This document shows, one piece after another, positions 17,737 through 64,000 of a DNA stretch of 64,000 nt. The stretch lies in assembly GCA_043228905.1 (NCBI GenBank), contig JBHGNT010000010.1, positions 4,836,001 through 4,900,000 of the forward strand. Reading direction: 5' to 3'. The notes below the pieces were generated by a model, which was not told where the DNA came from, did no database searches, and saw only the letters and a program-made list of their open reading frames with translations. The translations under genes and the position numbers were made by a program. Source of the DNA: Azolla caroliniana (Eukaryota > Plantae > Polypodiophyta). Each line of letters begins with the position of its first letter. Position 1 is the stretch's first letter.

Positions 17737-17808
17737 AGGGCAAGTAAGGATTCGAACCTTGCACCTCCGAGTTAGGAGTCAATTGGCTTACCATTAAGCC
17801 ATGCCATT
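17737..17808 (-). ncRNA. tRNA-like (SINE-head-like) sequence in U3 of the element C 5' LTR
   Basis: On the minus strand: A box TGGCTTAATGG with D-stem GCTT/AAGC, CTCCTAA loop, and B box GGTTCGAATCC with stem AAGG/CCTT. The acceptor stem is poor. An AT-rich tail follows. Confidence 0.65.
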
Positions 17809-21300: not shown

Positions 21301-24058
21301 GCTGGAATCGGTCCGAGCGTGGACGAATTTGCCGAAGTGTTTGCAGGCCGGTCCATCTACTCCATTGACGATCTCTACTCCGGATATGACCAATTCCAAT
21401 TGGCGATTGACAGTCGGGACATTACAACCATGAGGACTCCGATCGGGCTTGTGCGGATGTGTACCTTACCCCAAGGCGCAACGAACTCAGTGGCTCATAT
21501 GGTGAATGCCATGAATAAAGTCTTGAAGGATTGCATCTCGGACATCACGATGCCATTCTTGGATGATATTCCGATAAAAGGATGTTCGGATGAGGAGAAA
21601 GATGAATCGAAAGATAAGGAAGGTTGTAGAAAGTTCGTTGCGGATCATATGAAAGATTGCGAGAAGGTGCTTCAAAGGCTCGAAGATGTGAATTTGACAT
21701 TTTTGGGAGAAAAATCCGCATTCGGGCAACCAGAGATCTTGGTGGTAGGTCACTTGTGTGGAGCATACGGCTGGAAGCCCTCACCATCCAAAGTGAATGC
21801 AATCCAAGACATGAAAGAAGAATGCGAAAACCAAACGGAGGTTCGAAGGTTCCTTGGAGTGTGCGTGTTTGATCATATATGGATTCCTCACTACGCTCAT
21901 GTCGCCGAACCGTTATATGGACTACTAAAGAAAAGAATGAAGTTTGAATGGCGAGACGAGCACACAAATGCGATGCGAAGATTAAAGAAATTGCTTCTTG
22001 AAGCTCCGGCACTAAGGAAGGCCAACTATGCCGAAGGGAAACCAATTTACGTGACCGTAGATACGAGCCCAACCGGAATCGGGTGGATCATCAATCAAGA
22101 AGGTGAAGATAATGTGCAATATGCCGTCCGGTTCGGAGCAAAGGTTCTCAGTGAACGGCAACAAAGATATGCCCAAGTCAAGCGGGAACTTTGGGGGTAT
22201 TGTGTCGGTAGTGAAGACGGACAAAGATTACCTGATCGGGTCAGAAGTGATAATAGAGACAGATTGTCTCCCAATTCTCGGAATGGTCTCGGGATGTGCG
22301 ACCCCAGATCTTGCTATGCTAAGGTGGATCGCCTACATCAAGTCTTTAAACCCAGAGATCCGTCACATTGCAGGGAAGAAGAATGCCATGGCTGACATGC
22401 TGTCGAGGGCAAGATTTTCAAATGGAAGTAACATGGTTTCGGAAGATGAAGATGTCTCCCTCGACTTCTTCAAGATGGCTCGATTGTCGGCAGAAGACCA
22501 GGACACGCAAACCCTCCATGCCTTCAACGAGAACGAGTACGAAGGAGAGTGGTTACTCATCGGTAGATTCCTAAGAACATTGACGATAGATGCTTCGTTG
22601 ACAAAGGAGGAGGCCCTACGAATCCGAATGAAAGCTTACCGATACTTCTTGAAGGGAGGATTCCTTTGGCGACATCCAAAAAGAAGGACAGGAATACCAC
22701 GACGAGTGGTGGTAAAGAAAGAAGAGCAAGAGACGCTAATGACCGAATTCCACGAGAGTGCTTGGGCAGGTCATAGAGGAACATGGGCGACGTTCGAAAA
22801 GTTGAAGGAGAAGTATTGGTGGCCAAGCATGTACAAAGATGTACTCCATTTCGTGTCCACATGCGAAACTTGCCAAATATATTCAAATATATGTCATCGT
22901 GATGAGTTACAGCCGACATACCCACTCACCATACACTTCAAATGGATGGTGGATCTGGTCTCAATGCCAATGGGAGTGGGACAAATGAAGTACTTAGCAC
23001 TGGCAAGGGAAGACTTGACAAATCAAGTGGAAGGACGAGCCTTGACAAATAAGATGACTTCAACTGTTTGCAAATTTTTTCTTGAAGAGGTTGTTTGCCG
23101 ATATGGATGTGTAGGGAAGATAGTGGCCGACCGAGGGGAGTTGGACACGCACGAAGCAACGGAGCTCTTCGAAAGACTAGGCGTGAAGCTCTCCCTGATG
23201 ACTGCCTACAATCCGGAAGCAAATGGGAAGATCGAGCGAGGGCATGGACCTATCGTTAAAGCCATCGTACGGGCATGCAACGGTCGAGTCGGGAATTGGC
23301 CATGACTATTACCCTATGCCTTGTGGGCCGATAGAACGACACATAGCTCGGTGACAGGGTATATGCTGACGGAGCTTATGTATGGACAAAAGCCGATTAT
23401 GCCCATTGAAAGGACGATCGTCTCATTGAAAGCCATCGTACGGGCATGCAACGGTCGAGTCGGGAATTGGCCATGACTATTACCCTATGCCTTGTGGGCC
23501 GATAGAACGACACATAGCTCGGTGACAGGGTATATGCTGACGGAGCTTATGTATGGACAAAAGCCGATTATGCCCATTGAAAGGACGATCGTCTCATGGG
23601 TAGTGATACCGTGGGAGAACGAGATGAGCAGAGAAGAGTTATTAGCGGCGCGGATAAGGCAACTTGAAAGAAGACCTGAAGATTTAGAAAAAGTGCGAAA
23701 GATGATGGAGGCAACCCGAGTAAAGAACAAAGTTCGGTTCGACAACACGCATCGACTTTGTCCCAAGAAGATTGAAGAAGGAGATTGGGTTTTGGTTTAC
23801 GACAGCACCCTTGACAATCAACATAGTACAACAAGGAAGTTCGCAAGAAGATGGTTCGGGCCGTATGTGGTGACAAGTGCCAACGATAATGCCACATACC
23901 ACCTTGCGGAACTAGACGGATCAAGGTTGGCCGTACCCATTGCGGGAAAAAGAGTAAAGATTTTCAAGGAAAGACAAGACAAGGATCCTGACCTCAATTA
24001 CCTCGACGATGAACATAATAGGGTGGATGTAAATGAAGACATGCAGGAATCTAATTGA
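18338..24058 (+). pseudogene. Gypsy C gag-pol
   Basis: Gag knuckle CVWCDSMDHMRRDC, protease LIDHGSEIN, RT MPFLDDIPIKG, RNase H VDTSPTGIG, integrase ADRGE and WFGPY. A few stops and frameshifts. Confidence 0.93.
23258..23597 (+). repeat. 171-bp tandem duplication in the element C integrase
   Basis: 23258-23426 is repeated at 23429-23597; both copies contain the same TGA stop. Confidence 0.9.
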
Positions 24059-24775
24059 TCACCGTAGCCGAAATATCACTTTCTCTCTTCTTGGCACGTA
24101 CCGGAGGACGTGCGGTTTGGTGGGGGTGGATGTCGTGAAGATTTTCGGCAATAGTGTGAAAATCCCATAAAACATACAAAATCGAGTATGAATCACAAAA
24201 TACAATAATTGTGAAGATAACATTTTAAATAAATTTAATATCTAAGTACAAAATGATGGAGGTTTCGAATGCACTTTATTACACGAGAAACAGACAACTA
24301 AATGTTTAGATATGAGGGTATAAAGTTTGTGAAAGGAAAAGAGAAAATTGTGAGATATCCCACATAGTCACAACAAATACGGCTCTCATCATATATAAGG
24401 TAGAGCAAAACATATTATCTTTGTGTCTATATGTGGAGCATAGAGAGTTCAAGGTAACTTGAACTAAGAGTGGAGGTGGGCTAACTACTTGTAAAGGGTT
24501 AAATGGCCAACCAAAACCGGACCGGCGATAGAGCCGGTTATCCGGTAGCATCCGATGGCAATCCGGCAATGGCGGCATAATAGGGTGGATGTAAATGAAG
24601 ACATGGAGGAATCTAATTGAATCCGGCGACGGTGAGACGACGGCATCCGGCGAGGCACCGGTATCCGACGGCAATCGGCAACGGCATCCGGCGAGGCATC
24701 GGTAACCGACGAACTGGCGTTCGGTGACTATATAAATAAATATATAAATATATATACATATATACATATACAAGG

Positions 24776-24847
24776 AGGGCAAGTAAGGATTCGAACCTTG
24801 CACCTCCGAGTTAGGAGTCAATTGGCTTACCATTAAGCCATGCCATT
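24776..24847 (-). ncRNA. tRNA-like sequence in U3 of the element C 3' LTR
   Basis: Appears identical to 17737-17808. Confidence 0.65.
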
Positions 24848-26832
24848 TAGTTGAATTTATATTTCTATCATTGTACTTTTACGTGTAAATTCTCATACAT
24901 GAGAGCTAAAATGAGTGACATGGTTATCATGCACCACATGTAATACATAAGCGCCAAATGGCAAGCATGCATTTTATGCATGTCTTGTACCCTCACATGC
25001 ATCATATGCATGAGAGCATCTATAAAAGAAGGAAGGGGGAGGAGAAAAAACGCGTTTTTTTTTGTTATGAAATTAAGAAGAAGAAATTCGTTATCAAATT
25101 GATCGTGTAACTTGTTTCTTAAATCCAAAGATAAAAGTTCAATCAATCTCTCTCAATCGTTTAATCTCAACTTCTCTCTTTCCCAATCTATCTTAAGTAC
25201 TTTCTCGCCAAAGCTTGCGCCAAAGCTTGTACCGACTTTGAATCCTTCCGTTCGAGAACCCCGGCGGTTCCGCCTCACGATCCGCACGTAGTGACGGATC
25301 TTCACGACAGTGCACCGGAAGATCAACCAGAGGCTGAAGCAGAAGATCGATTATTTTGATCATCTGCACCGGGACTATAAGCAGTTGGAGGCGGAGTATA
25401 AGCAACAGCATGAAAGGATGGCCGAGCTCCGGCAAGAAGTTGATAGGGCCAGAATGGCACTCGCCGATGAACGAGCTTAGAGATCAAAGCTATTGGAGGA
25501 AGCGACGATGGACCGGATGGACCTCCACAAACAGAACCATGAAGAAAAGGAAAGGGCGACAATGGTATTACAGAGGTTGCAAACAACCTATCAAAGTCAA
25601 TTGTCGCATTATAGGGAGCAGGAGGCGGACATGGTCAAAATCATCAAGCAATTGAAAGAGGAGCGACAAGCCGCAGAGAACAAATCACGGATGGGAACCG
25701 AACGGATCCAGTGCATCCTCCGAGCATGGCTCACCAAGACCAAACGCTTGATTGACGAGAGCTCTGTGCAATGGTGGACGAAATGGGCGCAAAATACGGC
25801 GGAACTCCAATTGCTCAGGGTGGACGTGGAAAACCGGCGGAAGGAAGGTGATGATTGTTATACGCTGACATCGGAGGACTTCACTGCCATAAGGGATGAG
25901 TTGGCCGAAGATTTCACAGCCTTGGCGGATGAACAATTGGTGCAGGTCCGATAGCTCATAGCTCAACTGGACGACGATCGGCTGGAGGCTCAAATCTAGT
26001 TTGAGAGCTATGAGCAGTCCCGGCTCCGGGAAGAAAAAGCAAGGAAGGCGGCAACAGTGATGAAGAACCGTCGCCGGTACAAGGACCAAACGGGGACTAG
26101 GCCGGGATCAGTCAGCCAACGACAACTCCGACGGAGGAGACAACGAAGGAAACGCCGGTGCCAGAGCAACAAACGGAGCAGCAGCCCCAAATGGAGAAGG
26201 CACAAACAGAGCAACCACCGCAGCAGCCACAAACGGAACAGTAGCCACAACAGCAGCAGCCAAACCAGCAACAATAGATTCCCGACGAGCCATTGGAAAT
26301 TCTGGAGCAAAGCATTCTGGACATTTTGGACGAAGAGTAGCAGGGCCGGATAATGGGTTCAATGTACAAGGTACTGTCCCACGGGCGTGCCATGTGTTAC
26401 CCGGCCGGCATGTCCAGACCAGAGTGTGAAAGGAATAGTTTATTCGGGAACTGTTGTAATTATTTTATTAATATGGACGGACAGACCGGAATCAGTATGC
26501 CGATCCGGATCCGGACCGATTCTGAATAGGTGCCGGTTGGCACCGTTTTGTACTTCGCACCGGAGACCTATATAAAGGCCCGGTTACAATGTAATTAATA
26601 GCGGATAATTAATAGAACTTATTTCCTTAACCTTTCACTATTGATTACCGTTCTGTGCTTATTGCATATCTTACGCGTGTTAATGATGTATTGTTAAGTA
26701 ACCAATTAAGGTCTAATTAAGGTCTAATTAAGCGTTGTGTCGCAAGTCATCTTGTTGTAACACCCTTTGGTGAAGTGTCTTAAGTGGACACCCTGTGTTA
26801 GGCTGTTGTCCAGCCCTAGGATTAACAAAGCC

Positions 26833-39561: not shown

Positions 39562-42500
39562 TGTTGGGATTACGGTCCCTCCGGATGGGATGGTCGGATG
39601 TCCGGGAATCGGGAATGAAGACCCGAATGAGGAGTACCCGATTCGGGATCCGGATGATGAAGACCCGGTTCCGGAGCCGGATGATGAAGACCCCGGTTTC
39701 GGATCCGGATGATGAAGACCCCGGCTACGGAGCCGGATGATGAGGACCCCGGCTACGGAGCCGGATGACGAATGTACCCGGAGAGAGATCCGGATGCGGG
39801 GACATATTTGTGAATATGTTTGCCAAGGGCCCTCGAGGCTATATTTGTAAATAGCCCGAAAGTCATATGTGTATAAATATGACTTAGGGCAAACAGTTTT
39901 GGTGCTGTTACTCATTTTTCTGGTTTCTACTTAGAGGGAGCTAAGTGAGCAGTAGAGAGAGAGAGAGAGAGAGACGAAGAGGTCGTTGCCTCTGTGTATT
40001 ACCGCCGCTTGTGGCGAAGACAGTGAGCTCAAGGTTGTTGCCTTGTAGCTTCACCATTGTACATCTCTGTTTTAGTGATAGTTGGAGTTTGAGGACTCCC
40101 GTGGTTTTTTCCCATTTAGGGTTTTCCACGTAAAACATCCAGTGTATTCTTCTCTCTATTGTCTTCGTGCATTTTGTATTTCCTGTTTTCTGTGAGTAGA
40201 TCCTATTCCTCGGTTGTGGCCGAGCGCTCTCTTTAACAAAGTGGTATCAGAGCGACGGTAACACAGAAAATGGAAGGCGGCGGTAGTGGGCCTCCGGGCA
40301 TGATGGTGTTGAACTCACAGAACTACGCCGACTGGAAGATAAAGATGGAAGACCTTCTCATCGTCCGAGACCTGTACGAACCGATCGACAATGCCGAGAT
40401 ACCCAAGGGGGTAATAGAGACGGAATGGAGGTTTCTGAACCGGAAAGCCGTTGCAACCATTCGGCAATACGTCGACGTGAGCGTTCTACAACATGTGGCG
40501 AACGACACCAACGCATATAAGATGTGGCGGAAGCTGTCGGGCCTCTACGAGAGGAAGAATGCGTTGAACCGAACCTCCCTGATGAGGAAGATAGTGAACC
40601 TCAAGTACCGGGACGGCGAGAGTATGGTGGAACACGTAAGCACGTTCATGGGATTCGTGAACCAGCTTGCGGCGATCAAGTTCCCATTGGAGGATGCAAT
40701 GCAAGCCATCATCCTGATGTGTACATTGCCGGAAAGCTGGGAGAACTTGGTGGTGACTCTCAGCACCTCCTGCACCGAAGATAACTTGTCCCTACAAACG
40801 GTAAAGACAAGTATTTTGAACGAAGAAGCGCGTCGGAGAGATAAAGAACCGGCCTCCGATCCGAAGATGCTGCTTACCGAATCGGATCGGGGAAGACAAC
40901 GGAACCGGAGTCCGCAAAGACGGGAGAAGTCGGGGACCCGGTCGTAGTCAAGAGGAAGGCCCACATGCTTCCACTGTGGGAAGCCGGGGCACTTCCGGAA
41001 GAATTGTCGGCATTACCGAAAAGACAACGGAGCCGACGACACCGATTCGAAGAAGTCACCGGAGCGAAACGGTGCATATCGGGGAGCCACGGACCGGAGA
41101 GGTCCGGATCGGCGAGGGCAGGACCGGAAAGGAACGACGGCACTCGCGGCAAGTGAAGAAGAGATAATGCTCATTACCGAAGAGAGGGAGCTGAACCTTG
41201 CCGGTGAAGAGATGACCTGGGTGGTCGATTCCGGAGCGTCGTTCCACCTGACCCCGGAGAAGAAATACTTCTCATCCTGCACAGCCGGTGAGCACGGCTG
41301 TGTCCGGATGGGAAATGAAGGTACATGCCGGATTGCCGGCATAGGAGACGTGTGGCTGATGACATCAACCGGATGCAAGATGCTGCTGAAGGATGTTCGA
41401 CACGTTCCGGAGGTTCGATTGAACCTGATTTCGGCCGGGAGGCTAGACGATGAAGGCTACACGGGTAGCATCCGGAACGGTGTCATGAAGTTTAGCAAAG
41501 GGAGCCTGATAGTGGCTCGGGCCCGGAAGGTCAACACACTGTACCTGATGAATTCCCGGCTATGTCCGGAGGAGCTGAACGTGGCAGCTGACGCTGCCGG
41601 TGAGCTGTGGCACAAGAGACTGTGCCACATGAGCGAGAAGGGGATGAAGAGGCTTGCAGAAGACAACCTTATTCCAGTGAAGCATGTGCATCTGGAGAAG
41701 TGCACCGATTGCCTGGCCGGTAAGCAGAACCGAGCCTCCTTCCACTCAAGGCCACCGATGAGACGTAGCGCACCATTAGAGTTGGTGCACACTGACGTGT
41801 GTCAAGTAGAAACGAAGTCACATGGTGGAGCCCAGTACTTCGTGACATTCATTGATGACCACAGCCGGAAGCTGTGGACGGCACCGTTGAAGACAAAGGA
41901 CCAAGTGTTGTGCGTCTTCAAAGAACTCCACGCGAGAGTGGAAAGAGAATCCGGCAAGAAGCTGAAAGCACTACGAGCGGATAACGGAGGAGAATACCGA
42001 GGGCAATTTGAGGAGTATTGCCGTTCGATGGGAATCCGGCTCGAGTTTACTGTGCCGAAGACACCGGAACTGAACGGGTTGGCCGAGAGGATGAACCGGA
42101 CCATAATGGAGAGGGTCCGGAGTATGCTAGCACATGCGAAATTACCCAAGGGATTTTGGGCTGAGGCAATGTCGACGGCGACATATGTGATAAATAGATC
42201 ACCCTCAGTACCCCTGGATGGAGACACGCCACAGAGAGTGTGGACCGGTAGGGAAGTATCCTACCGGCATCTGAAGGTGTTCGGATGTCTCGCATACGTG
42301 CATGTGGCAAAGGACCGGAGAGGAAAGTTAGATCCAAAGACCCGGCCATGCATATTCCTCGGTTACGGCGACGACGAGTTCGGCTACCGAGTATGGGACC
42401 CGGTCGACAAGAAGATATTCAGGAGTTGTGATATCATCTTCATGGAGGACAAGACACTCGCTGACTGGGAGTCAGAGAAGAAGATGAAGAGCTCCAAGTC

Positions 42501-45003
42501 GACCGGTGAGAATCAACTCTACGAAGAGCAGTCCCGACCGGCAAGGGACCGGTTAGCACTCGAGGATCCGGCCGAGGAAGATGAAACTGATACCGGAACC
42601 GGCCCCGATCCCGAAATGGATTCGGATGAAGAGGAAACGGAGGAGCCGGTTACCGAAGCTCCGGAACGGAGATATCCTCTAAGAGAGAGAAGGGCCCCCC
42701 GGAGATTTCCGGAACCAGAGCACGTGTTGCTAACCGACGAGGGGGAGCCGGAGAGTTTTGAAGAAGCAAAGCTTGACACCCATAGCCGCAGGTGGTTAAG
42801 TGCCATGCAGGAGGAGATGGATTCTCTGCATGAGAACCACACATATGAACTTGTGGAGTTGCCGAAAGGAAAGCGGGCACTTCGAAACAAGTGGGTGTTC
42901 AAGCTGAAACCGGGAGATGCCGGAAACCCCCCGAGATACAAAGCCAGGATCGTGGTGAAGGGGTTCCAGCAGAAGAAGGGCGTCGACTTCGACGAGATAT
43001 TTGCCCCGGTAGTGAAGATGACCTGCATCCGGACGGTGTTGAGCATAGCGGCAAGCATGGACCTCGAGGTAGTACAGATGGACGTGAAGACGGCATTCCT
43101 TCACGGTGACCTCGAAGAAGAGATCTACATGCAGCAACCGGAAGGATTCGAGAAGAAAGGGAAGGAGCACCTGGTATGCCGGTTGAAGAAGAGCCTTTAC
43201 GGACTGAAGCAGGCTCCCCGGCAATGGTACCGGAAGTTCGACTCTTTCATGACCGACGAAGGGTACCACAAAACGCAGTCCGATCACTGCGTGTTTGTGA
43301 AGAAGTTCGAAGGAGGAGACTTTCTAATACTCCTCCTGTACGTGGACGACATGTTGATCGTCGGACGAGACCAGGTCAAGATACGGATGCTGAAGAAAGA
43401 GCTTCACCGAACCTTCTCAATGAAGGACCTGGGTCCGGCGAGGCAAATACTGGGGATGCACATCATCCGGGACCGGAAGAAGAAGCAGTTGTGGCTGTCA
43501 CAGGAGAAGTACGTGACAAAGGTGCTTCACCGGTTCAACATGTTGGAAGCAAGACCGGTCGGGTCACCCCTCCCGGCAAACTGCAAGTTGTCCAGCAAGC
43601 AAAGCCCCAAGACAAGGGCTGAGAAGGAGGACATGATGAAAGTACCATATGCCTCTGCCGTCGGAAGCTTGATGTACGCGATGGTGTGTACAAGACCGGA
43701 CATAGGATATGCAGTCGGAGTGGTGAGCCGGTACATGAGCAATCCCGGCAAAGAGCACTGGAACGCGGCCAAGTGGATACTCCGATACCTGAAGGGCACG
43801 GCAAACGTATGCCTCCGATTCGGCTCCGGTAAGCCCGAACTCGACGGCTTTACCGATTCGGATATGTCGGCTGATGCAGATACCAGCCGGTCCACATCAG
43901 GGTATGTGATGACGTATGCAGGTGGAGCTGTTTCGTGGCAGTCGAGGCTGCAGAAGACGGTTGCGTTGTCAACCACGGAGGCGGAGTACATAGCGGCTGT
44001 TGAAGCCGGAAAGGAAATAATATGGATGAAGGACTTCATTAGAGAGCTCGGTATCCGGCAGGAGGAGTACCGGCTCTACTGCGATAGTCAGAGTGCCATC
44101 CACCTTGCGAAGAACGCGGCCTACCATTCCCGGATGAAACACATCCAGCGTAGATACCACTGGATCCGGGAAAGGATAGAAGACAAGGAGTTCGTGCTGA
44201 CGAAGATCCACACGGACGAGAACGGGTCAGATATGCTGACCAAAGTGCTCACACCCGACAAGCTGGAAGCGTGCCGGAAGAGGGTCGGACTGGAAAGACA
44301 TCCCATGCCGAAGTGAAGGGGGAGTTTGTTGGGATTACGGTCCCTCCGGATGGGATGGTCGGATGTCCGGGAATCGGGAATGAAGACCCGAATGAGGAGT
44401 ACCCGGTTCGGGATCCGGATGATGAAGACCCGGTTCCGGAGCCGGATGATGAAGACCCCGGTTTCGGATCCGGATGATGAAGACCCCGGCTACGGAGCCG
44501 GATGATGAGGACCCCGGCTACGGAGCCGGATGACGAATGTACCCGGAGAGAGATCCGGATGCGGGGACATATTTGTGAATATGTTTGCCAAGGGCCCTCG
44601 AGGCTATATTTGTAAATAGCCCGAAAGTCATATGTGTATAAATATGACTTAGGGCAAACAGTTTTGGTGCTGTTACTCATTTTTCTGGTTTCTACTTAGA
44701 GGGAGCTAAGTGAGCAGTAGAGAGAGAGAGAGAGAGAGACGAAGAGGTCGTTGCCTCTGTGTATTACCGCCGCCTGTGGCGAAGATAGTGAGCTCAAGGT
44801 TGTTGCCTTGTAGCTTCACCATTGTACATCTCTGTTTTAGTGATAGTTGGAGTTTGAGGACTCCCGTGGTTTTTTCCCATTTAGGGTTTTCCACGTAAAA
44901 CATCCAGTGTATTCTTCTCTCTATTGTCTTCGTGCATTTTGTATTTCCTGTTTTCTGTGAGTAGATCCTATTCCTCGGTTGTGGCCGAGCGCTCTCTTTA
45001 ACA
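39562..45003 (+). mobile_element. Young full-length Ty1/Copia element E (Tnt1/Tork-like)
   Basis: 677-bp LTRs 39562-40238 and 44327-45003, with three differences found by eye. Perfect TSD CACCG. Met PBS TGGTATCAGAGC at 40242-40253. PPT GAAGGGGGAG at 44315-44324. Confidence 0.97.
40270..44316 (+). CDS. gag-pol: Copia E gag-pol polyprotein in a single frame with one internal TAG (40945-40947)
   Basis: ORFs 40270-40947 and 41167-44316 share a frame. Contains CCHC knuckle, DSGAS, integrase HHCC and DDE, YVDD, and RNase H. Confidence 0.93.
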
Positions 45004-52418: not shown

Positions 52419-55400
52419 TGTCGTGAAGATTTTCGTCCATAGGCGGAAACCGGGGTGGAATAAGCAAATCGGTGGTGTGCACCATGTGCACATGTATACT
52501 AGGAAATGGTGCATAGAAATAAGAGGGGAAATTCTATCCCACATTGTAAGGTTCCTCCCTCCTCGGGCTATAAAAGGAAGGGAGGGGTCACTTATGAGGA
52601 GTTGCCTATTTTGAGGGAGAGAGGCATACCACTTAGGTCGAGGGTTTCCTATTCGGTTTTAGGGTTTCGGTTAGGGTTTTCTTCTAGGGTTTTCCTTTAG
52701 GGTTTTTGATATAGTCGTTTGGTGCGGCCATGGCGGCCACCATTGTTATAATCATTCGCTTGTTTTTAATATAGCTTGTTGTGGATCTTGCTTCCATCTA
52801 TTTTGGTCTATGCTTATGTGCTACTCATCCACTTCTCATATCTTATTCTTTCTCCTCTACTCCCTAGTCCAAGACCCCTGTGGTCCCGCCCCTTCTACAC
52901 GCACGCGCGTAACAGCGCGACATCTTTGGTGAACCCGACGTGAAGGGCGACAAGGGAGCATGGAGATAGAAGAAGACTTCGACTTCGAGGAGATGATGGC
53001 AAAGATCGTGATGGAAGCCGGACGGAAGATGGCGAAGCGAGATGCGGCTTAACAAGCCGTCGAAAGGGTGGTCAATTGAGTCGGCCGGTTCAATGGGAAT
53101 GAGGTCCTAAAAATTTTGGGAGCCTACAAGGCCGAGATGGTGAAAAGGGGCGTAGACGAGGCGATGCGGCTAGAGTATTTTCCTCGAGTGGCGGCCGTAT
53201 CGGTGCACAAGGAGGTCAAGGAGCTACGAGAAGCTCACGAGTCATGGGTGTCCTTTGAGGGAGCCCTATTGGAGGCGTACGGGTACACGGAACCGGAAGG
53301 AAGAGGTCGACATGAATTCGATCGGTGGGTGTGCCGGCAACATGATGCGAGGCGGTCGGCCACAACACGGCCCGCGAGCGGCGGAGAAGAGAGAACGGCG
53401 AGTGAGTACGCACTACCGCCGGAAGAGAGTTCAACGCAAAACGGTTCGGAGGAGCTCGACCTAGAGGTGCTAATACGGGAGGCATGCGAGCTTGTGAAGG
53501 CGAAAATCGGAGCCGAAGAAGGGCTTGTTATGGAGTCGGGCCGGAGGTGATCGAAGGATGCGGACGAAGAAGCCTCCCTAGACGTAGAAGACCGGGCCTA
53601 TACAGAGGCCGAAAGAGCGTACGACGGCAACATGGGAGAGGGTGCGGAGCAAGCGACCCTCTTGCCTTGCGGTGAAGGGACGGCCATGGAGGCCGGTAAC
53701 TACGGATTCGGGACACGGCGGCCCAAAACATCAAGCGGGAAGGCGAGTGGCTGAAACGACAACGAAGGGAAGGCGGCAAGCATAATTGAGGCTTGCATAA
53801 TCGGAGGCAGGTTAGCCGCAGACAACGACATCCGAACGGAAGCGGCTACGGACACAATGAGCGGCGGTGCCGGGTCCTTACCCACACCGGTCCTAGAGGC
53901 TCCGGCGGCCGGCCCGAGTGCCGGCATGAGACCTAGAGCGACGGGCGGCAAGGCGGCAAGGCGGGCTACCACGACGGCGAGAACGACGAGGAAAAGGTGG
54001 TGGCAAGCGTAAACGGAGACGGGGTAGCCACGGACGACGATGACCAAATGGAGGTGGCTACGAACGAAACGAGGGGCGGTGCCAAGTCCTTACCCACAAT
54101 GGTCCTGGAGGCTCCGGCGGCCGGCCCGAGTGCCGGCGTGAGACCTAGAGCGAGGGGCGGTGGCGGCGACAAGGAGGGCAACCAAGACAACGGCAAGGAA
54201 AGCGAGGAAGAAGGGGCGGCAAGCATAATCGAGGCTTGCGGAATCGGAGATGGGGGAGCCGCAGACAACGACGTCCGGACGGAGGCGGCTACAGCAACGA
54301 CGAGTGGAGGTGCCGGGACCTTACCCACACCTATTCTAGAGATTTCGGCGGTCGGTCCCGAGAGCCCATGTGAGGCCGGAGAGACAGAAGGTGGCGGCGG
54401 CAATGCGGACGATCGAAACAACGGCGAGGAAGGTCATAGCGGACAGAGGAGAGACCCCTCGACATCGGGGCCGGAGACTACGGCGGTTGCACTCGAATGC
54501 CAACATAAGACCGAAGAGAAGGACAGTGGCCGTGAGGAGGAATGACCCGGAGCGAACACGTGAGAAGATGAGGATGTGAGGCCCGTAACGGGGATATACA
54601 AGAGGAACGATGGAGAGGTCGGGAGCGGCAAGGAGGAGAGAGTCGGGAACCGACCCGACCGGAAGATGAACCGGTCGATAATCCGACACGACTGGAAGAC
54701 GAGGTGGAAGAAGATTGGAGCGGGGTCCGATCAACCGGGCCCGAACCGAAGAAGAGCCGGCAAGGCCGGATTTGTGCAGGCAAACATGTACCGGCCAGTT
54801 ACGATTATGGAAGGGAGCCGACCAAACCGGAACTCGATCGACCGAGACCAATCCGGGCGAAGGCTAAGTCGTCATGATTGGAGGTTGATGCATACGAGCC
54901 ACAACACACGATGGGAGCCGGTGAGCGCGAGAGCGAGGAGGCTAACCGAGCACGACGAGTACGGATCGGTGAGAGGCCGAGAGCAAGAGGGACCCTCCCC
55001 ACCTATTCTAGAGACTTCGGCGGTTGCGGATCAACATAAGACCGAAGAGACGGCGGGTGGCGGCGAGGAGTCGGGGACTGGAACAAACAAGGCTACTGGA
55101 ACGGGTAGCCGGTGCGTGCAGACGGACGAGCACGGCCCAAACGGCAAGCCGGAGTCAGAAGAGGCTACGGCAACAAAGGACAAAGAGACCAACGCGGAGG
55201 TTGGGTCTACGGCGGATGAAGCGTGTAACACGAAGCATGCATTACGGACGGCAAAGGGCCAAGAAGCAAGCATGCACCCAGAAGAGCGGCAATGAGTGAC
55301 CGGCAACGGCGGACAGGTTGAGCCTTTGAGAGGCAAGCACGCGGCAAGAAACGGAGCGGTGAGTTGCTGGGATCGGCGGATGAACGACGAGAGCGAAGGA

Positions 55401-57228
55401 TGGTGCACGGAGAACAACGGGGTACACACCGGGAAGAGAAGACGCGGCGGCTTCCCGAAGGGCATGCAAGGCCAAGTGGGCCAAGAGGGTGCAAGTCGAG
55501 GCGAGGCGGTAACGAGAGCCTCGAGGGACACCAACACGGAGGTCGGGATGACGATACGCTCTACGACGAGAGAGCACGACGGGCAAAGGAGAGGCAAGGA
55601 ACGCGGAATGGGGTCGCCTAAGAGCAAAAGAATGAGCGCATATTCGGGGGACAACATCGGCGCACGAGAAGAGCCTATGGAAGGCAAGTGTGGAGCAGGA
55701 AGAGTTGACACGCCGAGGTGTTCGGCATGCGGAGACGATAAAACCAAAGGAGGAACATACGCAACACGGAAAGGGCGGAATCCGGAGTGCGATCGGAGAG
55801 ATCAGGAGCGCACCCGGAAGACATACGAGCCTTTGCGAGGAATGCACGCGGCGAGAGACGGAGCGGTGAGGTGTCGGTATCAGCGGATGATCGGCGACCA
55901 TGGAAGGCTATGTCTTCAGAACCGGAGGAGGTGCGTGGAGAGCAACGAGCTACGCGCCGGGAAGAGGAAGCGCGGCGTCCTGGAAGGCATGCGAGGCCAA
56001 GCGGGCCAAGAGGACGAGAGTCGGGATGAAGCGGTAACGGGAGTCGCGAAGGACACTGACATGATGGTCGGAATGACGGTACGCTCTACGGAAAGAGAGC
56101 ACGGTGAGCAAAGGAGAAACGAGGAGCGTGTAATGAGGTCGCCGAGGGACCAAAGAACGAGTGCATGTTCGGGAGACAACAAGGGCACACGGAAAGAGCC
56201 TACGGAAGGTGAGCGCGGAATGGAGGGAATCGGCACGAGGTGTTCGAGACGAAGAGAGGATCAAGCCGGAGATAGAACACAAGCGGTACGCAAGGGACGG
56301 AATCCGGTGAGCAAATGGGGTGACCGAGGGCCTAATCGGAGGACCTACGTGGCGGACAAAAAAAGAGTGACCGGATCGGCAATGGCGTTCAGGAGGACCG
56401 ACCGGGGAGGAAGGCGAACGCGGTGGATATGGCAGTTCAGATGGAATCGATGTTTCGGGGACACACGGTGAACGTGGTGGATCGGGTGGAGCCGTCGGCT
56501 CGAGGACATGCGACGGATACGGTGGAACGGGATGCTACGACGGTTCGTGTGGAAGGGACGGGCATGCTCGAAATAGAAAACGAAGCGAGCAAGGCCAACG
56601 AGGACACGGCGGACCTCGGTTTTATCACCATGGCCGAAAAATCTCACCTCTTCTCCCTTCTTGGCACATATTGGTGGATGTGCGGTTTGGTGGGGGCGGA
56701 TGTCGTGAAGATTTTCGTCCATAGGCGGAAACCGGGGTGGAATAAGCAAATCGGTGGTGTGCACCATGTGCACATGTATACTAGGAAATGGTGCATAGAA
56801 ATAAGAGGGGAAATTCTATCCCACATTGTAAGGTCCCTCCCTCCTTGGGCCATAAAAGGAAGGGAGGGGTCACTTATGAGGGGTTGCCTATTTTGAGGGA
56901 GAGAGGCATACCACTTAGGTTGAGGGTTTCCTATTCGGTTTTAGGGTTTTGGTTAGGGTTTTCTTCTTGGGTTTTCCTTTACGGTTTTTGATATAGTCGT
57001 TTGGTGCGGCCATGGCGGCCACCATTGTTGTAATCATTCGCTTGTTTTTAATATAGCTTGTTGTGGATCTTGCTTCCATCTATTTTGGTCTATGCTTATG
57101 TGCTACTCTTCATCTTCTCATCCGGTGTTAAGCTACCACTTCTCATATCTTATTCTTTCTCCTCTACTCCCTAGTCCAAGAACCCGTGGTCCCGCCCCTT
57201 CTACACGCACGCGCGTAACAACGCGACA
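52419..57228 (+). mobile_element. Non-autonomous Gypsy-type element I (gag remnant, no pol)
   Basis: LTRs 52419-52922 and 56701-57228, Trp PBS 52927-52943, PPT 56684-56700, perfect 4-bp TSD CCGT. Gag-like region 52960-53550. No RT or integrase motifs seen. Confidence 0.92.
52636..52708 (+). repeat. Degenerate telomere-like (TAGGGTTT, telo-box) cluster in the element I LTR; second copy near 56918-56990
   Basis: TTTTAGGGTTTCGGTTAGGGTTTTCTTCTAGGGTTTTCCTTTAGGGTTTT. Confidence 0.7.
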
Positions 57229-57756: not shown

Positions 57757-59481
57757 CCGTGTAAGAACGTCGTTTTTACGTCCATATGCTCGGTCTCTAG
57801 GTCTTTCTACGATGTCTCTATTGACTTCGAAGGAGACGTTCTTACCAATTATTTTCTGTTGGTTCCTCTCAGAGAGAATAGAGTCTTCATTGAAGACCAC
57901 ATCACTACTCCAGATCAATTTCCAGTTCTTTGGGTCCCATAGCTTGTAGCCGAATTCCCCATATGTTCCATAACCAAGAAATATGCATTTCGTTGCATGC
58001 GGTGCCAGCGTAGTCCTTTTTTCCGTGGGGATGAACGTGTAAGCTTCGCATCCGAATATACGAATTCTATCATAGGTCGGTTGTTTGCCTGACCATAGTG
58101 CCTATGGCACTTTTAACCTTATTGCTTTCAACGGCGATAGATTGATCAGATATGTTGTCGTCTGCAATGCTTTGGCCCAGAACTCCAGCTTTAGTTAGGC
58201 TTGTTGGAGCATTACTATCACCCTCACTTGGATCATTCTGATGATCCGTTCGACCACTCCATTCTGCATGGGTGTGTAAGGAACAGTTTTTTGGTGTCTA
58301 ATCGCTTTCTCGGACAAGTATTGTTTGAAGATTCGGGAGTTGTATTCTCCTCCCCTGTTGGATTGGAGTGTCTTCACTCTGTGCCTTGACCGGTTCTCCA
58401 CTTCAGTTATCCACCGAGTAAAGACCTCACGCGCTTCGTCTTTGGACCTAATCAAGTAGGCCCAAACCTTCCATGTACAGTCATCTACAAATGTGATGAA
58501 GTATCGGGAACCACCTAGTGATTGCTCAGGCATAGGCCCACATATATCTGTGTGAACGAGCTCTAGGGGTTGTCGTACTATCTCATAGTGGAGAGAGTGT
58601 GGACTTTGGGTCTGTTTCCCGTATCGACAATGCTTGCAGAAGTTCGTCTTTGCTTGGAGTTTTGGAATGTAGCCAACCGCCATCGGCCGATCTAGGCCGG
58701 CTTGAGACATATGGTTGAGTCGGCCATGCCATAGGTTCGGGTTGGTCTTTTCGACTACGTTCACGGCCCCTTCTAGATTGATCGCCATCATTGGATACAA
58801 GTTATTGTACTTGTGTCTATTCCCAATCTTTAGATTTCCACGGCTGATCATCCTTGTCGACTCACTCAGAGTCATTTTGTATCATTTTCGGCTAGCATGC
58901 CGATGGAGACCAGACTCCTTTTTAGTGCGGGTACATGCCAAACTTGGCGCAAGGTGATCATATTGCCATTTGACAATTGGATTGGTACTTCGCCAATTCT
59001 TGCGATTCTGCCCTCCTGCCCATTGCCTAGTTGGATTGTGCTGCTGTCACGGACACACCAACCTTAGACTATGACAAAGCACAGATGACGAGGCTACAAG
59101 TGTGGAACTTAAGAAGCAATGAGACTAGGAACTGTACAAGTTGCGAGTGATGAGACTATGAACTTAGGAAGCTAGGATTAACTAGAGAGCATGAAGACAA
59201 ACATGAAAATCACAGAGACAATACCGCACGAAACGAGGAAACTAGATTAATGTGTCAATGACTGGCGTTGAATCCCTTGAAAGGGACCAAGGAAGTTACA
59301 AGTATTTATAGATGTTCCGAGATTGAATATCTCTAGAATATACTCGAGAAATATCTCTAGAATATACTCATCTAGAATATGTCGTACAATATTTCTAGAA
59401 TATACTACTAACTAGAATATTCTAATTCTGAAATGTATTATATGCTAGACTATAGAATATCAAACCATTATATACAACTGC

Positions 59482-59545
59482 ATGCTCATAACAAAGTGGT
59501 TGAACATGACATCTTGTAGTTGTGAGATTGCAGGTTCAATCATTA
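59482..59545 (+). ncRNA. Degenerate tRNA-like sequence in U3 of element J (second copy near 61582-61643)
   Basis: A-box-like TAACAAAGTGG, CTTGTAG loop and B-box-like GGTTCAATC(C), at tRNA spacing. Confidence 0.4.
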
Positions 59546-59634
59546 ACTACGCATTTGACATCGTTGTGTCGTGACATTAGCTTCCCTTTTATGGTCGCCT
59601 TTTCAAAAGCGTGGTGTAGGGGTGGACGGGAATT

Positions 59635-59983
59635 GGAACATGAACAACAGCAGGCATGAACGACCATGTCGGTCCTCGCCAGGATCCGGAACACGAACAA
59701 TAGCTAGAGTGAGCGACCATGTGCAATCCTCACCGGAGACTAGAACACGAATACCAACGGGTGTGGCTAACCATGTGCGATCCTCACAGGGAACACAAAC
59801 ACCAACAGGCATGAGAGACAATGTCGGTCCTCGTCGAGAGTTGGAACACGAACACCAACGGGCATGAGCAACCATGCGGCCCTCATCGAGAACTGGAACA
59901 CGGACGAACGTGATCAACCATGTGTGGCCCTCATCGAGAACTAGAACATGAATGGACGTGAGCGACCATGTGTGGTCCTCGCC
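59635..59983. repeat. About 7 diverged ~50-bp tandem repeats inside element J
   Basis: Recurrent RGAACACGAA...ACCATGT...CCTC unit. Confidence 0.8.
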
Positions 59984-60556
59984 ATCAGAAAGTGGTGCGA
60001 GACTTGAACTATAACGAAAATGCAATGCAAACTAAGCAATGATCTGATCCCCACTACGAAAGTGAGCAATTGTGACCCCCATCGGAACTGGGAAGGTGCG
60101 CAATCGAAAGCACTCCTCACCAAAACCGTGATGCAAAATGATACCTAAAAATGATGAGAAGTAGTGTTGATGACGAAGATGGTTGGGCAAAGAGGTGTTG
60201 AAAATGATGACGACGAAGACAAGGATGTTGATGACTGTAACTCCGGAAGCAAGGATGGTGATGATGGTAACTCTAGAAGCAAAGGCGATGACGAAGACGG
60301 GTGGTGCTCTCAGTTGGAAGGGATTCAAACTGTCATAGACACACCAACCACGGACTAGGATGGAGCACAGATGATGGGGCTACGAGCGACGGATGCACTT
60401 GGAGGTAGATGTGACGAGGCTAGGAACTCTAGATGTTGTGAGGGACATGAGGGCATGAAGACAAAAATAAAGATCAAGGAGACAAAGATGAGGCGAAACA
60501 AGAATACTAGATTGATGTGTCAATGACTGGCGTTGAATCCCTTGAACGGGACCAAG

Positions 60557-61384
60557 CAAGGTTGTTAGGTACGTTAGATACGATACGGATACCATACGTA
60601 TTTAACGTATTAATACCCGTATAGTACCTCCCAATTTAAAAATACGTTAAATACGTTTTCTTAATATGTTAAATACTTATAAAATACGTATTTTACGTAT
60701 AGTACGTTAAATGCTTCTAGAATTTGAAAATGATTTACCTTTCTAAAAAATATCTATAATATTGAAAAAAACATCTATGTTTACACAATTTTGTGATGTA
60801 CAATATAATTCTATATCCTAAAATGCATATAAGACATTTGAACATTTCACATCCTAAAATACTTGTAGTAATATGGATGTCGACATTTCCTTATTCTATA
60901 AATCAGTGTAAGTGTGTATCACGATGTTCTACTTCAAATTGTAATTATTTACAATTATGCCTTCATAGATTGAGGAATCGTCTACAATTATCACACTCAT
61001 GACAGGTTTCTCTTTTCTTCGTTTTCTTCTTCTATCTTCTACGATTATCACACTCAAAACAGGTTTATGTCTTCTTTTCTCTCTCTCTTCTTCTTCTTCT
61101 TCTTCATCATCTTCTTCATCGTCATCTCTTCTATTCTTCTTTCTTCCTTCCTTTGGCTTCTTCTTCACTAAAATCTTTTTTTTCTTTTGCTTTTTGTTAG
61201 GGTTTTACTTACATTTTCTTTATAAATACGTATTATACCTGTTTTTTTATAAATACATTAAATACTGTATTGGACAAATGTACATGATATTTGATTGAAC
61301 AACATTGAGGTATAGTATGTACTATACAAACGATGAGGTACTATACGTATTTAAACGTTAAATACGGGTACGTAAACAACCATG
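60557..61384. mobile_element. Non-autonomous hAT-type DNA transposon (MITE 2), 828 bp
   Basis: Perfect 8-bp TSD GGACCAAG. TIR CAAGGTTGTT / AACAACCATG. Many TACGT subterminal repeats. The empty site is visible in the sister LTR at ~59284. Confidence 0.92.
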
Positions 61385-64000
61385 GGACCAAGGAGGTTAC
61401 AAGTATTTATACATGTTCCAAGATTGAATATCTCTAGAATATACTCGAGAAATATCTCTAGAATATACTCATCTAGAATATGTCATACAATATTTCTAGA
61501 ATATAATACTGACTAGAATATTCTGATTCTGAAATGTATTATATGCTAGACTATAGAATACTAAACCATTATATACAAGTGCATGCTCATATCAAGTTGA
61601 GCATGACATCTTGTAGCTGTGAGGTTGTAGGTTCAATCCTCACTAACTACGCATTTGACATCGTTGTGTCATGATAGTTGTTGGCGCCAATTGAATAGTT
61701 AAAAAACCATTCGATGTTCGGGGTTATGTGGAATGTGGCCCCGGAGTCCAATAACCACATATGTGCATCTTGCGCATTCTAAAGGACTTTTCCGATCATC
61801 GAGTCCTCTAAGGAGAGGATTTTCCCGATCGGGTGTCGGCAACATTGACTTGGTTGCCGACTAGAGCGTGGTTCGAGTCAGATCATCCTGGATTCCATTC
61901 AAATCACTGACTACTCTCTTTCCTCCTGATTGACCAGCAGTCGGAAACGTTGTTACCGGGTTTTCTATAGTGGGTGTAGAAGTCGCTTGGTCGCTTGGTC
62001 TAACTCTCTCATCTTCATGTTGAATAGTTGTCTAATCAATATCAATTTCGAAGATGAGGACTTCTTTTCGTACACCACCTACGGCTTCGCCCATAATGAG
62101 AATGTTGTCATCTCCTTGGCCATGCTAAAGTAGATGTTTTCGACCAGATGCATTCGGATGGTGGAGCGCGCGATTTCATCTATAGATCTCTCATCTTCGA
62201 CTGACATCGTAATGGGTTTTTTGCTTTGTGGAATGGCTTCGACTTGTCTTCTGATGATCAGCACATCCTGCATCATCTCCTTCCACAAAGCAAAATTTTT
62301 TCCATCGAACTTTCGGATTTCAACTCGTGTTCTAGATGTGAAGCCATGTTCTGTAGGAAGTAAGATTTAACTGACCTGGTCTTTTCTTTCAATCGGATAG
62401 CTTCTCCTCTTTTCTATTATTCGTCATTGTTGAACAGCAGGTCGCTCTGATACTAGTTGTTGGTTATGGTGTTCGAATATGTATGGGAACCTGTTGAGCA
62501 ATGCTCGACAAACAATAACAAAAAGAGTGAGGGCAAGAATATGAACAAAAGATGGACGCGCACTTAAGCTTTAATGGAAGCTTTGTTATTTCTGCAACTC
62601 TCTCTCTACAAGACCCAAGATAAAAAGAATTCATAGTATTACAACATTACGTTAGGACTTATATACGCAAGCCCTAATTATTGTACGTGTTCACACTAGT
62701 AAGGATACAAAGTGGAAGGAATCAGCCTTTTATGCGGCGCAACACCTCGATGGTGTATCCTGGATCTTCTAAAGGTCGCACGAAACCCTTGTGTTGACCC
62801 GGGGACTCCACTATACATAAGAAGGTTGTATCACGTGCGTTCATGACATCATTTATAAACCCCTTATACATATGGTTTTTACTATTTTAGTAACCCTTGT
62901 GTAGAAAAAAGATTAATAAAAATACCCCTTATTACCAATATATTTTTTGATAACCACCCATTTTAAATACCCTTACATATAAAATATACATGCACACATA
63001 GGTTGCAATCCTAGAAGGGATCAATGACCACCTTTACAATTGATGACTCGCAAAATTATGAATCGACATTAAACATCATATGCAAATTCCTAGAAATGCT
63101 TCATCAAGTGCCACATAGATTGAAAACACAATGTGTAAAGTACAAAGTAATGTACACACAATTAGGAAACATTACCCAAAAACACTACAGGTATAACATA
63201 TACAAGCCACATATAAGCTTTTGTTTTTAGTTTATTGAGACGTATTAAGAACATTGAGTGATAAAAAACAATGTAATTTACAATAAAACAATCTTGAACT
63301 TAACACATACATCTCAAAGAGCACATATGGAACAATCCAAAATGCATATCAATAATGAAATTACTAACAAATTAACATTATGTCTGGTTTCATGGATATA
63401 GACTCATATAAAGCCATAATATTATTTTTTCTCAACACATTGATCAAACAAATGGCAACCTACTTCATATTTCCATTTGAAATGTAAGACATCATCTATT
63501 CACATACTCTTACCCAAATCAAAATGAAATAAAATAAATCATTTTGTTATTGCAATATCTACTTAAAAACTTATTGCAATAAAGGTTACCCTTATAAAGA
63601 TTGAGTATATAAAAAGAAAACCCTAAGAAGTTCATTTTAGGCTGTAAATTTCATGTCGTTTCCATCTTCAACATTGGACCTATATCATAAAATGTAACAA
63701 CAAAAGCAAGAAATCTTAATATACATGGAAGTAAATATTATCTTAATATACATGGAAGTAAAGAAATCAGAAAATATATTTGGAATACCGTAGGTTTATA
63801 TTTGGTTTCTACTCTTTTCTCCTTTTCCTGTTAAAATAAAAAGCATAAATATTAAGTTACTTTAATATATATTATATATGTACATGTATGCAAGTATATA
63901 ATTCAAAATAGCTTATATATACATACCTGGATTTCATTTCCAAAAGAAAATCGTTGAAAACTTTACAATCGCTTTCATCTAACAAATAGTTATCACATTT

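What the first reader, a model, noticed from the sequence alone, without database searches (positions are those of the whole stretch)
59045..61676. Miniature non-coding LTR element with an 11-nt self-priming site instead of a tRNA PBS
Seen: element J (minus strand) has no TGG-type PBS. Two nt after its 5' LTR it reads TTGAATCCCTT (plus 60318-60328). This is exactly complementary to AAGGGATTCAA inside the LTR (plus 59268-59278 and 60533-60543), which begins 32 nt downstream of the TATA box, at the expected transcription start. Established: Tf1/sushi-type elements prime reverse transcription by pairing the first 11 nt of their RNA with the PBS. Inference: J is a TRIM-like parasite (~1.8 kb without the MITE) of a self-priming, probably Tcn1-like, chromovirus. 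The plant TRIMs I know of are tRNA-primed.
Basis: partly seen in the sequence, partly recalled or inferred. Interest (0 to 1): 0.8.

Follow-up and report, generated by a model that had tools for sequence, protein, structure and literature searches.

The report
Self-priming gene-less bryophyte LTR retrotransposon family
This is one old, promoter-broken copy of a multi-copy family of gene-less jumping elements, likely from a moss or liverwort, whose primer site matches the predicted first 11 letters of its own RNA, so it likely starts copying itself without a borrowed tRNA, a trick known from yeast Tf1 and predicted for full-size moss elements but not found described for a plant parasite element.

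Summary
The element (59045-61676, minus strand; 1,796 bp without an 828-bp MITE and its target duplicate) has LTRs of 510/532 bp, a PPT, a decayed 5-bp TSD and no protein domain. Its PBS (TTGAATCCCTT) is the exact complement of an LTR 11-mer lying 32 nt behind a TATA box. It is a family, not a one-off: relatives occur in runs of four organism labels and in 10 metagenome contigs. Four of 5 copies holding both sites pair 11/11; one has a compensatory double change (single event, chance about 0.06-0.09). A second duplex (R against the U5 end) flanks the primer duplex, as in Tf1. Corrections: the MITE separates TATA from the 11-mer in this 5' LTR, so this copy is likely dead; units of 1.8-2.4 kb exceed typical TRIMs; no autonomous partner was found, so Tcn1 is inferred from a bryophyte-like neighbourhood only; no RNA data test the start site. 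Self-priming is already predicted for plant Tcn1 and TAR elements, and this scan noted self-priming mini-elements in other genomes, several fungal. Verdict: new variant of a known kind, modest interest.

The parts
59045..61676 (-). Whole element J (LTR-internal-LTR, with a MITE in the 5' LTR); 1,796 bp without the MITE and one TSD copy
61677..61681 (-). Left target-site copy (ACAAC); two transitions from the right copy
   Evidence: 5-bp TSDs are perfect around solo LTRs L010 and L004
59040..59044 (-). Right target-site copy (GCAGC)
   Evidence: both flanks lie in one frame of a copia Pol_BBD domain, profile 1-22 and 29-79
61385..61676 (-). 5' LTR, U3 part, with TATA box at 61411-61404; start decayed (TATCATGA against TGTCACGA)
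   Evidence: 18 mismatches in 281 columns against the 3' U3
60557..61384 (.). 828-bp MITE, about 10-bp imperfect TIRs, 8-bp TSD CTTGGTCC (61392-61385 and 60556-60549); hAT-like by TSD length (label recalled); separates TATA from the predicted start
   Evidence: multi-copy by itself; the MITE-free junction is in 25-31 contigs per run
60331..60556 (-). 5' LTR, end of U3 plus R/U5, ending TGACA
   Evidence: 22-39 contigs per run leave the stretch at 60331 into unlike flanks, agreement 0.36-0.39
60533..60543 (-). Predicted self-primer AAGGGATTCAA (predicted RNA nt 1-11) in the 5' LTR
   Evidence: the start site is inferred from TATA spacing, not mapped
60511..60527 (-). R nt 17-33, predicted to pair with the last ~19 nt of U5 (60349-60331)
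60318..60328 (-). PBS TTGAATCCCTT, 2 nt (GT) after the 5' LTR
   Evidence: compensatory variant in L003
59577..60330 (-). 754-bp internal domain, no Pfam domain; conserved ~110-nt leader with 30-nt repeats
59627..59985 (-). Array of about 7 degenerate 46-54-nt repeats (48-nt units in relatives)
59581..59590 (-). Polypurine tract (AAAAGGGAAG), 4 nt before the 3' LTR; relatives read AAAGGGGAGG
59045..59576 (-). 3' LTR, 532 bp, TGTCAC...GTGACA; TATA 59310-59303; 11-mer 59278-59268
58198..59039 (-). Host Ty1/copia pol remnant, right of the insertion (Pol_BBD, gag_pre-integrs, rve)
61677..61766 (-). Host Ty1/copia pol remnant, left of the insertion (start of Pol_BBD)

Best explanation
J is an old copy of a multi-copy, protein-less LTR retrotransposon family, likely of a bryophyte, that likely primes its own reverse transcription in the Tf1 manner using enzymes borrowed from an autonomous element, likely of the Tcn1 chromovirus clade. 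Shown: LTR ends, PPT, 5-bp TSDs, many insertion sites, no coding domain, exact PBS/11-mer complementarity across copies. Inferred steps: Pol II starts 32 nt behind the TATA box at the first A of AAGGGATTCAA; RNA nt 1-11 pair with the PBS while nt 13-33 pair with the GT spacer and the U5 end, leaving nt 12 bulged; the helper's RT/RNase H cuts between nt 11 and 12; the 11-mer primes the minus strand; the PPT primes the plus strand, which would recopy the PBS from the primer and so keep the two sites matched; the helper's integrase makes the 5-bp TSD. This copy is likely inert because a MITE has moved its 5' TATA box 836 bp away from the primer. My odds: self-priming family 0.85; helper Tcn1, given that, about 0.65.
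For: Exact 11/11 match with chance 5e-4 to 1.5e-5; the 5 other LTR pairs of the window reach 4-5 nt. The scan pattern covered R nt 12-33 and fixed neither 11-mer: 9 of 13 R starts are exact, and 4 of 5 copies with both sites pair 11/11, the fifth 10/11. L003 has A>G in the primer and T>C in the PBS at the paired position; a loose end from 6 contigs of run X4 shows a PBS with the same change plus one more (its R is not seen). TATA-like box at -32 in 9 of 11 LTRs, across U3 types only 50-62% alike. In all 4 copies with a perfect match, nt 3-9 pair with the PBS at probability 0.97-1.0, and nt 12 is unpaired in all 5 folds, the position cut in Tf1 (PMC7175516 passage). The R/U5-end duplex keeps 165 of 176 cells paired in 11 LTRs, including 2 that lost about 70 nt of U5 between the arms, like one flanking duplex of the Tf1 'pretzel' (10.1101/2022.12.06.519325 passages). 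Summed contig depth peaks over the PBS and the R start in 4 of 4 runs; none of the 40 shown variant rows (57 in all) lies in either 11-mer; in X4, 22 of 23 variable places are shown. All 30 bins are covered in 4 of 4 runs. 71 of 73 frames give no Pfam match at E 0.01, 2 give unrelated sub-cutoff matches. Host: all 31 organism-named hits among the 120 listed for a neighbouring gypsy pol are Riccia; Tcn1 occurs in moss and club-moss, 83% predicted self-priming, 100% 5-bp TSD (PMC6317226).
Against: No RNA evidence for the start site. The compensatory change is one event in one low-coverage (2x) short-read contig; chance about 0.06-0.09 by my reasoning (1 of 11 positions, times the chance of the matching base). 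The whole 251-nt leader is not unusually stable: z = -1.28, 24 of 200 shuffles fold as well. The flanking duplex has no two-sided change; its R side was fixed by the search pattern in the loci, and 5 of its 16 pairs use the LTR end, which integrase constrains anyway. Tf1's third duplex is not clearly present (only 4-5-bp candidates, variable between copies; read). 17 variant rows are hidden, and absence of variants in 22 of about 287 positions is weak by itself. No partner element found. The neighbouring copia pol has only seed-plant names among its named hits (50-62% identity), so the host clade is inferred from one of two searches.
Confidence: 0.8

Rival explanations
1. Same self-priming family, but the helper is not Tcn1: a TAR-like Ty1/copia or an undescribed bryophyte lineage supplies the enzymes.
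For: TAR copia elements are 89% predicted self-priming with 95% 5-bp TSDs. The internal domain has an antisense D/E/K/R-rich frame and repeat periods of 30, 33/63 and 48 nt, which hints at a decayed extra ORF; the REXdb table lists no extra ORFs for Tcn1 or TAR. No partner seen.
Against: The neighbourhood looks bryophyte (Phygy-like 4-bp CCGT TSD), where Tcn1 is the described self-priming clade. TGTCAC...GTGACA ends with a spacer after the PPT look gypsy-like and TAR is a seed-plant lineage (both recalled, untested). The antisense frame shows no excess of synonymous change in 5 of 5 comparisons.
Confidence: 0.25
2. The 11-bp match is one end of a structural stem (packaging, dimerisation or promoter palindrome) and priming uses a host tRNA or tRNA fragment at or near this site.
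For: The match is part of a longer R-U5 stem. The spacer plus PBS resembles the sense strand of a tRNA T-arm/B box (recalled consensus). No host tRNA set was available, so internal or half-tRNA complementarity was not tested (no tRNA in the window or in 10 of 10 loci).
Against: No TGG after the LTR. The match sits exactly at the PBS position and ends exactly at the TATA-predicted start. The compensatory change in L003 would break pairing with a fixed tRNA. A sense-strand likeness to a T-arm cannot pair with that tRNA.
Confidence: 0.1
3. J is a chance deletion derivative of a full-length element; the primer signature is inherited and the short form never transposed by itself.
For: Internal domains differ in length and modules between copies (754 bp in J, 1,459 in L009, about 1,500 in L007). 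No laid contig spans the whole element.
Against: L009 holds a whole 2,436-bp LTR-to-LTR unit with no Pfam domain. Contigs of three runs are collinear with J's compact 5' internal arrangement (X1 60086-60303 and X11 60159-60387 without gaps, X4 60058-60366 with 18 gap letters). J has its own TSD within a copia gene.
Confidence: 0.06

Closest known systems
Tf1/Tf2, Tj1, Tosmo1-3 (Tf1/sushi group; PMC7175516, PMC4600332, 10.1101/2022.12.06.519325, passages)
   Same: 11-nt primer at the predicted RNA 5' end complementary to a PBS just behind the LTR; unpaired nt 12; a flanking duplex between LTR sequence and the PBS-adjacent U5 end; U3 types that differ sharply up to near the U3-R junction.
   Different: No gag/pol; plant host; start site and cleavage untested; third pretzel duplex not clearly found.
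Plant Tcn1 chromoviruses of moss and club-moss (REXdb, PMC6317226 passages and Additional file 5; PMC2864245 passages)
   Same: Predicted self-priming (83% of 1,500 elements), 5-bp TSD, non-seed-plant host, pyrimidine-rich leader.
   Different: Those are 5.5-9.4-kb coding elements with a chromodomain; J has no coding domain, so clade membership cannot be tested. Per-element PBS sequences (Additional files 1 and 3) were too large to read.
Plant TRIMs (PMC4717578 passages; definition in PMC6934838 passage)
   Same: Non-coding, LTR-PBS-internal-PPT-LTR, 5-bp TSD, solo LTRs, possible tandem units sharing an LTR (L007, L008, L009).
   Different: One Selaginella TRIM has a gypsy partner (SmoLTRA4) whose priming mode I did not see.
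TAR Ty1/copia (Houba, Osr-1; PMC6317226)
   Same: Predicted self-priming in plants (89%), 5-bp TSD.
   Different: Coding copia elements; no sequence link to J tested.

Membership tests
Tf1/sushi-type self-priming (works like) | PBS next to the 5' LTR is complementary to an LTR segment, not TGG-type | tested here: met
   11/11 in 4 of 5 copies, 10/11 in 1; one compensatory pair
Tf1/sushi-type self-priming (works like) | The complementary segment is the 5' end of the RNA | tested here: inconclusive
   TATA-like box at -32 in 9 of 11 LTRs; start site not mapped
Tf1/sushi-type self-priming (works like) | Three-duplex pretzel around the PBS | tested here: inconclusive
   primer duplex and upstream duplex found; downstream duplex only 4-5 bp and variable; whole-leader z -1.28
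Tf1/sushi-type self-priming (works like) | RNase H cleavage after the primer and priming from it | not testable with these tools
   needs cDNA intermediates or a mutational assay
Tcn1 chromovirus clade | RT/RH/INT phylogeny and chromodomain | not testable with these tools
   no coding sequence in J or relatives; no partner found
Tcn1 chromovirus clade | 5-bp TSD | tested here: met
   perfect in solo LTRs L010 and L004, 3 of 5 in J; shared with most lineages, so not diagnostic
Tcn1 chromovirus clade | Non-seed-plant host | tested here: inconclusive
   31 of 31 organism-named hits are Riccia for the gypsy neighbour; named hits of the copia neighbour are seed plants
TRIM | No coding capacity; LTRs, PPT, TSD; multiple copies | tested here: met
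TRIM | Small size (under 1 kb with 100-250-bp repeats in PMC6934838; mean 685 bp, LTR at most 500 bp in the search of PMC4717578) | tested here: not met
   1,796 bp (J) and 2,436 bp (L009); LTRs 510/532 and 491/486 bp
TRIM | PBS complementary to a tRNA (PMC6934838 definition) | tested here: not met
   no TGG-type site after the LTR; half-tRNA pairing not tested

The most novel reading that the evidence does not exclude
A land-plant parasite element that self-primes, in which self-priming also leaves a trace in the LTRs: because the second packaged RNA carries no bound tRNA, the minus strand would run through that RNA's PBS into its R/U5, so that new copies are born with matching U3 but different R/U5 halves. 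J (U3 18/281 mismatches, R/U5 38/201) and L009 show this pattern. If general, LTR-divergence dating overestimates the age of self-priming elements.
Probability: 0.12. Interest if true: 0.65.

Novelty: new variant of a known kind. Interest (0 to 1): 0.38.

Why it matters
Self-priming in plants is so far a prediction from sequence for coding Tcn1 and TAR elements. A gene-less family that keeps the primer, the PBS and the pairing U5 end while most else drifts points to the minimal cis-signals, supplies a compensatory change, and shows that non-autonomous elements can live on a self-priming helper. PBS-dependent annotation tools would tend to miss such families, which may bear on the reported lack of TRIMs in P. 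patens (inference). It extends known biology and does not overturn it.

Tried and rejected
No whole genome is held, so copies came from contigs only. Viral-contig scans: 1 hit and 2 hits were chance matches in unrelated DNA; the PPT-plus-LTR-start pattern gave 0. Prokaryote genome scans gave 0 twice. No RNA holder listed. Rfam: 2 matches far below gathering score. tblastn of 8 retro-ORFs of the window against J and the 10 loci hit only flanks of L011 and L005. The Pfam scan covered 26 frames of J, 14 of L009, 22 of L007, 10 of L008 and 1 of L003; the internal part of L003 was not in it. Coding by the internal repeats was rejected: no codon-phase bias in 32 repeat units (0.19/0.17/0.20), and synonymous changes in the antisense frame match expectation (P 0.12-0.56 in 5 comparisons), although the first 105 nt have more variable third positions (15 against 7 and 8). 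J as a proven mosaic was not upheld: a J5+J3 clade in R/U5 is not rejected (p-AU 0.31), whereas L009a+L009b is (p-AU 0.006), but L009 is a collapsed short-read contig. Tandem units in L007-L009 are not counted as proven because short-read assembly can loop through LTRs. The protein atlas gave no answer. Two primary Tf1 papers are not held. Sequence look-ups in earlier findings gave nothing.
Full report
1. Observation. On the minus strand the element runs from 61676 to 59045. The 3' LTR is 532 bp, TGTCAC...GTGACA. The 5' LTR is 510 bp once an 828-bp MITE and one copy of its 8-bp TSD are set aside. After the 5' LTR come GT and TTGAATCCCTT, the exact complement of AAGGGATTCAA in both LTRs; the 11-mer occurs nowhere else in the window. 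A chance match is unlikely (5e-4 anywhere in the LTR; 1.5e-5 near the predicted start), and 5 other LTR pairs of the window give 4-5 nt. A purine tract lies 4 nt before the 3' LTR. The target copies ACAAC/GCAGC differ by two transitions; the insertion splits a copia Pol_BBD domain, with profile positions 1-22 on the left and 29-79 on the right. The 32-nt TATA spacing is seen directly only in the 3' LTR, because the MITE sits between TATA and 11-mer in the 5' LTR.

2. It is a family. No genome is held. Contigs of 4 runs cover all 30 bins of the element, internal domain included. Over two calls, 5 of the 14 holding runs were laid, of four organism labels. At the 5' LTR end, 22-39 contigs per run go on into unlike flanks, which marks independent insertion sites; at the MITE edge, 25-31 contigs per run go straight on to the TATA box, so the MITE is not a family feature. 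A metagenome scan with R nt 12-33 gave 10 loci. They hold 11 further LTRs: two solo LTRs with perfect 5-bp TSDs (L010, L004), four LTRs followed by a PBS (L003, L007, L008, L009), and one whole 2,436-bp unit (L009). These are short-read contigs at 1.5-14x and may include chimeras.

3. No coding. 71 of 73 stop-to-stop frames from J and four loci match no Pfam family at E 0.01; two give unrelated sub-cutoff matches. Retro-ORFs of the window find nothing inside the elements. The internal domain is a conserved ~110-nt leader, variable low-complexity repeats and a 48-nt array. An antisense D/E/K/R-rich frame is visible but shows no excess of synonymous change.

4. Test of self-priming. The scan pattern fixed neither 11-mer. 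Of 13 R starts 9 are exact; of 5 copies with both sites 4 pair 11/11 and 1 pairs 10/11. L003 changes both sides at the paired position (A-U to G-C). This is one event, with a chance of about 0.06-0.09 by simple reasoning; a loose end in run X4 (6 contigs) shows a PBS with the same change plus one more, without its R. A TATA-like box is 32 nt upstream in 9 of 11 LTRs, although the U3 types are only 50-62% alike. In folds from the predicted start to 25 nt past the PBS, nt 3-9 pair with the PBS at probability 0.97-1.0 in the 4 perfect copies, nt 12 is unpaired in 5 of 5, and nt 13-33 pair with the spacer and the U5 end. That second duplex keeps 165 of 176 cells in 11 LTRs, also in two that lost about 70 nt between the arms. 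Against: the whole leader folds no better than shuffles (z -1.28); the second duplex has only one-sided changes, its R arm was fixed by the pattern and 5 of its pairs use the integrase end; the third Tf1 duplex is not clear. In laid contigs, depth peaks at the PBS and the R start and none of the 40 shown variant rows (of 57) falls in an 11-mer; for X4, 22 of 23 variable places are shown. The start site itself is unmapped.

5. Mechanism. In Tf1 the first 11 bases pair with the PBS and RNase H cuts between bases 11 and 12 (PMC7175516, passage), within a three-duplex structure (10.1101/2022.12.06.519325, passages). J's family has the same primer length, the bulge at nt 12 and two of the three duplexes. 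I infer that MITE-free copies are transcribed from the TATA promoter, packaged by a helper, self-primed, and integrated with a 5-bp TSD. J itself is old (U3 6% diverged between its LTRs) and likely silent.

6. Helper and host. No coding partner was found. The host looks like a bryophyte: all 31 organism-named hits among 120 listed for a neighbouring gypsy pol are Riccia, and a neighbour has the 4-bp NCGN TSD listed for Phygy. The named hits of the copia neighbour are seed plants at 50-62% identity, which neither supports nor excludes this. In REXdb self-priming is predicted for Tcn1 (83%, moss and club-moss) and for TAR copia (89%) (PMC6317226 passages and Additional file 5); an earlier study saw no priming signal in Selaginella SM-Tcn1 (PMC2864245 passage). 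Tcn1 is the best guess, not a result.

7. LTR mosaicism. U3 and R/U5 types reassort across copies, as shown for Onsen (PMC5668417 passages). Within J, R/U5 is three times as diverged as U3 (p 4e-5), but a J5+J3 clade is not rejected (p-AU 0.31); for L009 it is (p-AU 0.006). Tf1 cDNA recombines with resident copies to give hybrids and tandems (PMC11042837 passages), which is the plainest known route; a heteroduplex made during reverse transcription is the more novel one.

8. Novelty. Searches for a self-priming non-autonomous or TRIM element listed no such plant case; only listings were seen for most of those papers, the one hit with both terms (PMC6934838, passages) mentions self-priming only as background, and the library lacks most subscription journals. 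The TRIM survey found none in P. patens and has no 'PBS' in its main text (PMC4717578 passages; supplements not opened). PMC4600332 and PMC3350952 were seen as passages, PMC5651808 as abstract. This scan has noted self-priming non-coding LTR elements in other genomes, several fungal (unchecked notes), and no look-alike of this family. J fails the TRIM size and tRNA-PBS criteria, so it is a TRIM-like, mid-sized non-autonomous element that works like Tf1. Verdict: real; new variant of a known kind; interest 0.38.

Noticed in passing
window 59292-59268 (minus) and the same place in 9 locus LTRs: A 6-9-bp hairpin is predicted across the U3/R border in 10 of 10 LTRs folded; it hides the first 4-9 nt of the 11-mer. 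It can form only in RNA that contains U3, that is the 3' copy of R or read-through RNA, and would keep that copy from competing for the PBS.
   Followed up: partly
LTRs of J and L002-L011: U3 types (50-62% alike) and R/U5 types combine freely, e.g. L009a shares 89% R/U5 with L002 and L004 but 58-59% U3. This fits recombination at the first strand transfer as shown for Onsen (PMC5668417 passages); assembly chimeras are not excluded.
   Followed up: partly
window 61676-61393 against 59576-59292; 60543-60331 against 59278-59045: J's two LTRs differ far more in R/U5 (38 of 201, 8 gap runs) than in U3 (18 of 281); Fisher p 4e-5, transversions alone p 0.013; the control pair L007/L008 shows no such contrast (p 0.72). 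Unexplained: gene conversion, cDNA recombination as in Tf1 (PMC11042837 passages) or a heteroduplex.
   Followed up: partly
L007, L008, L009: PPT-LTR-PBS junctions, that is tandem units sharing one LTR; may be real arrays or assembly loops.
   Followed up: partly
L009:541-1115 (minus) and the matching parts of J, L003, L007, L008: An antisense frame rich in D/E/K/R with few stops runs almost to the PBS; repeat periods in the internal domain are mostly multiples of three. Possibly a decayed antisense ORF; no present selection seen.
   Followed up: partly
window 60330-60318 (minus): Spacer plus PBS resembles a tRNA T-arm/Pol III B box in sense orientation (recalled consensus; two mismatches).
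   Followed up: no
window 60500-60545 against 60314-60335: Summed contig depth over the R start is about 5-9 times that over the PBS in X1, X4 and X11, about 3.5 times in X14, which suggests many solo LTRs; 2 solo LTRs with perfect 5-bp TSDs are among the 10 loci.
   Followed up: partly
window 26385-26410: A gypsy element (LTR match 8697-9106 / 26410-26830) has GCGTGCCA and no purine tract before what looks like its 3' LTR start; this resembles the PPT-less family in earlier notes on this genome.
   Followed up: no
window 39562-45003: Young Ty1/copia element, LTRs 99.6% identical, 1,122-aa open pol frame, TGGTATCAGAGC PBS.
   Followed up: partly
window 17188-25309, 52420-57228, 6859-32049: Nested gypsy elements with a TGGTGAAC(C/T)CGACGTG PBS (tRNA-Trp type, recalled) and, for 52420-57228, a 4-bp CCGT TSD, as listed for Phygy.
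   Followed up: partly
window 60535, loose ends in X6, X11, X14: A palindromic sequence holding a one-letter variant of the 11-mer joins the R start in 2-7 contigs per run; perhaps another small insertion or family.
   Followed up: no
L002:1749-2294: A reverse-transcriptase-like frame in the flank that looks Penelope-like by recalled motifs; not tested.
   Followed up: no
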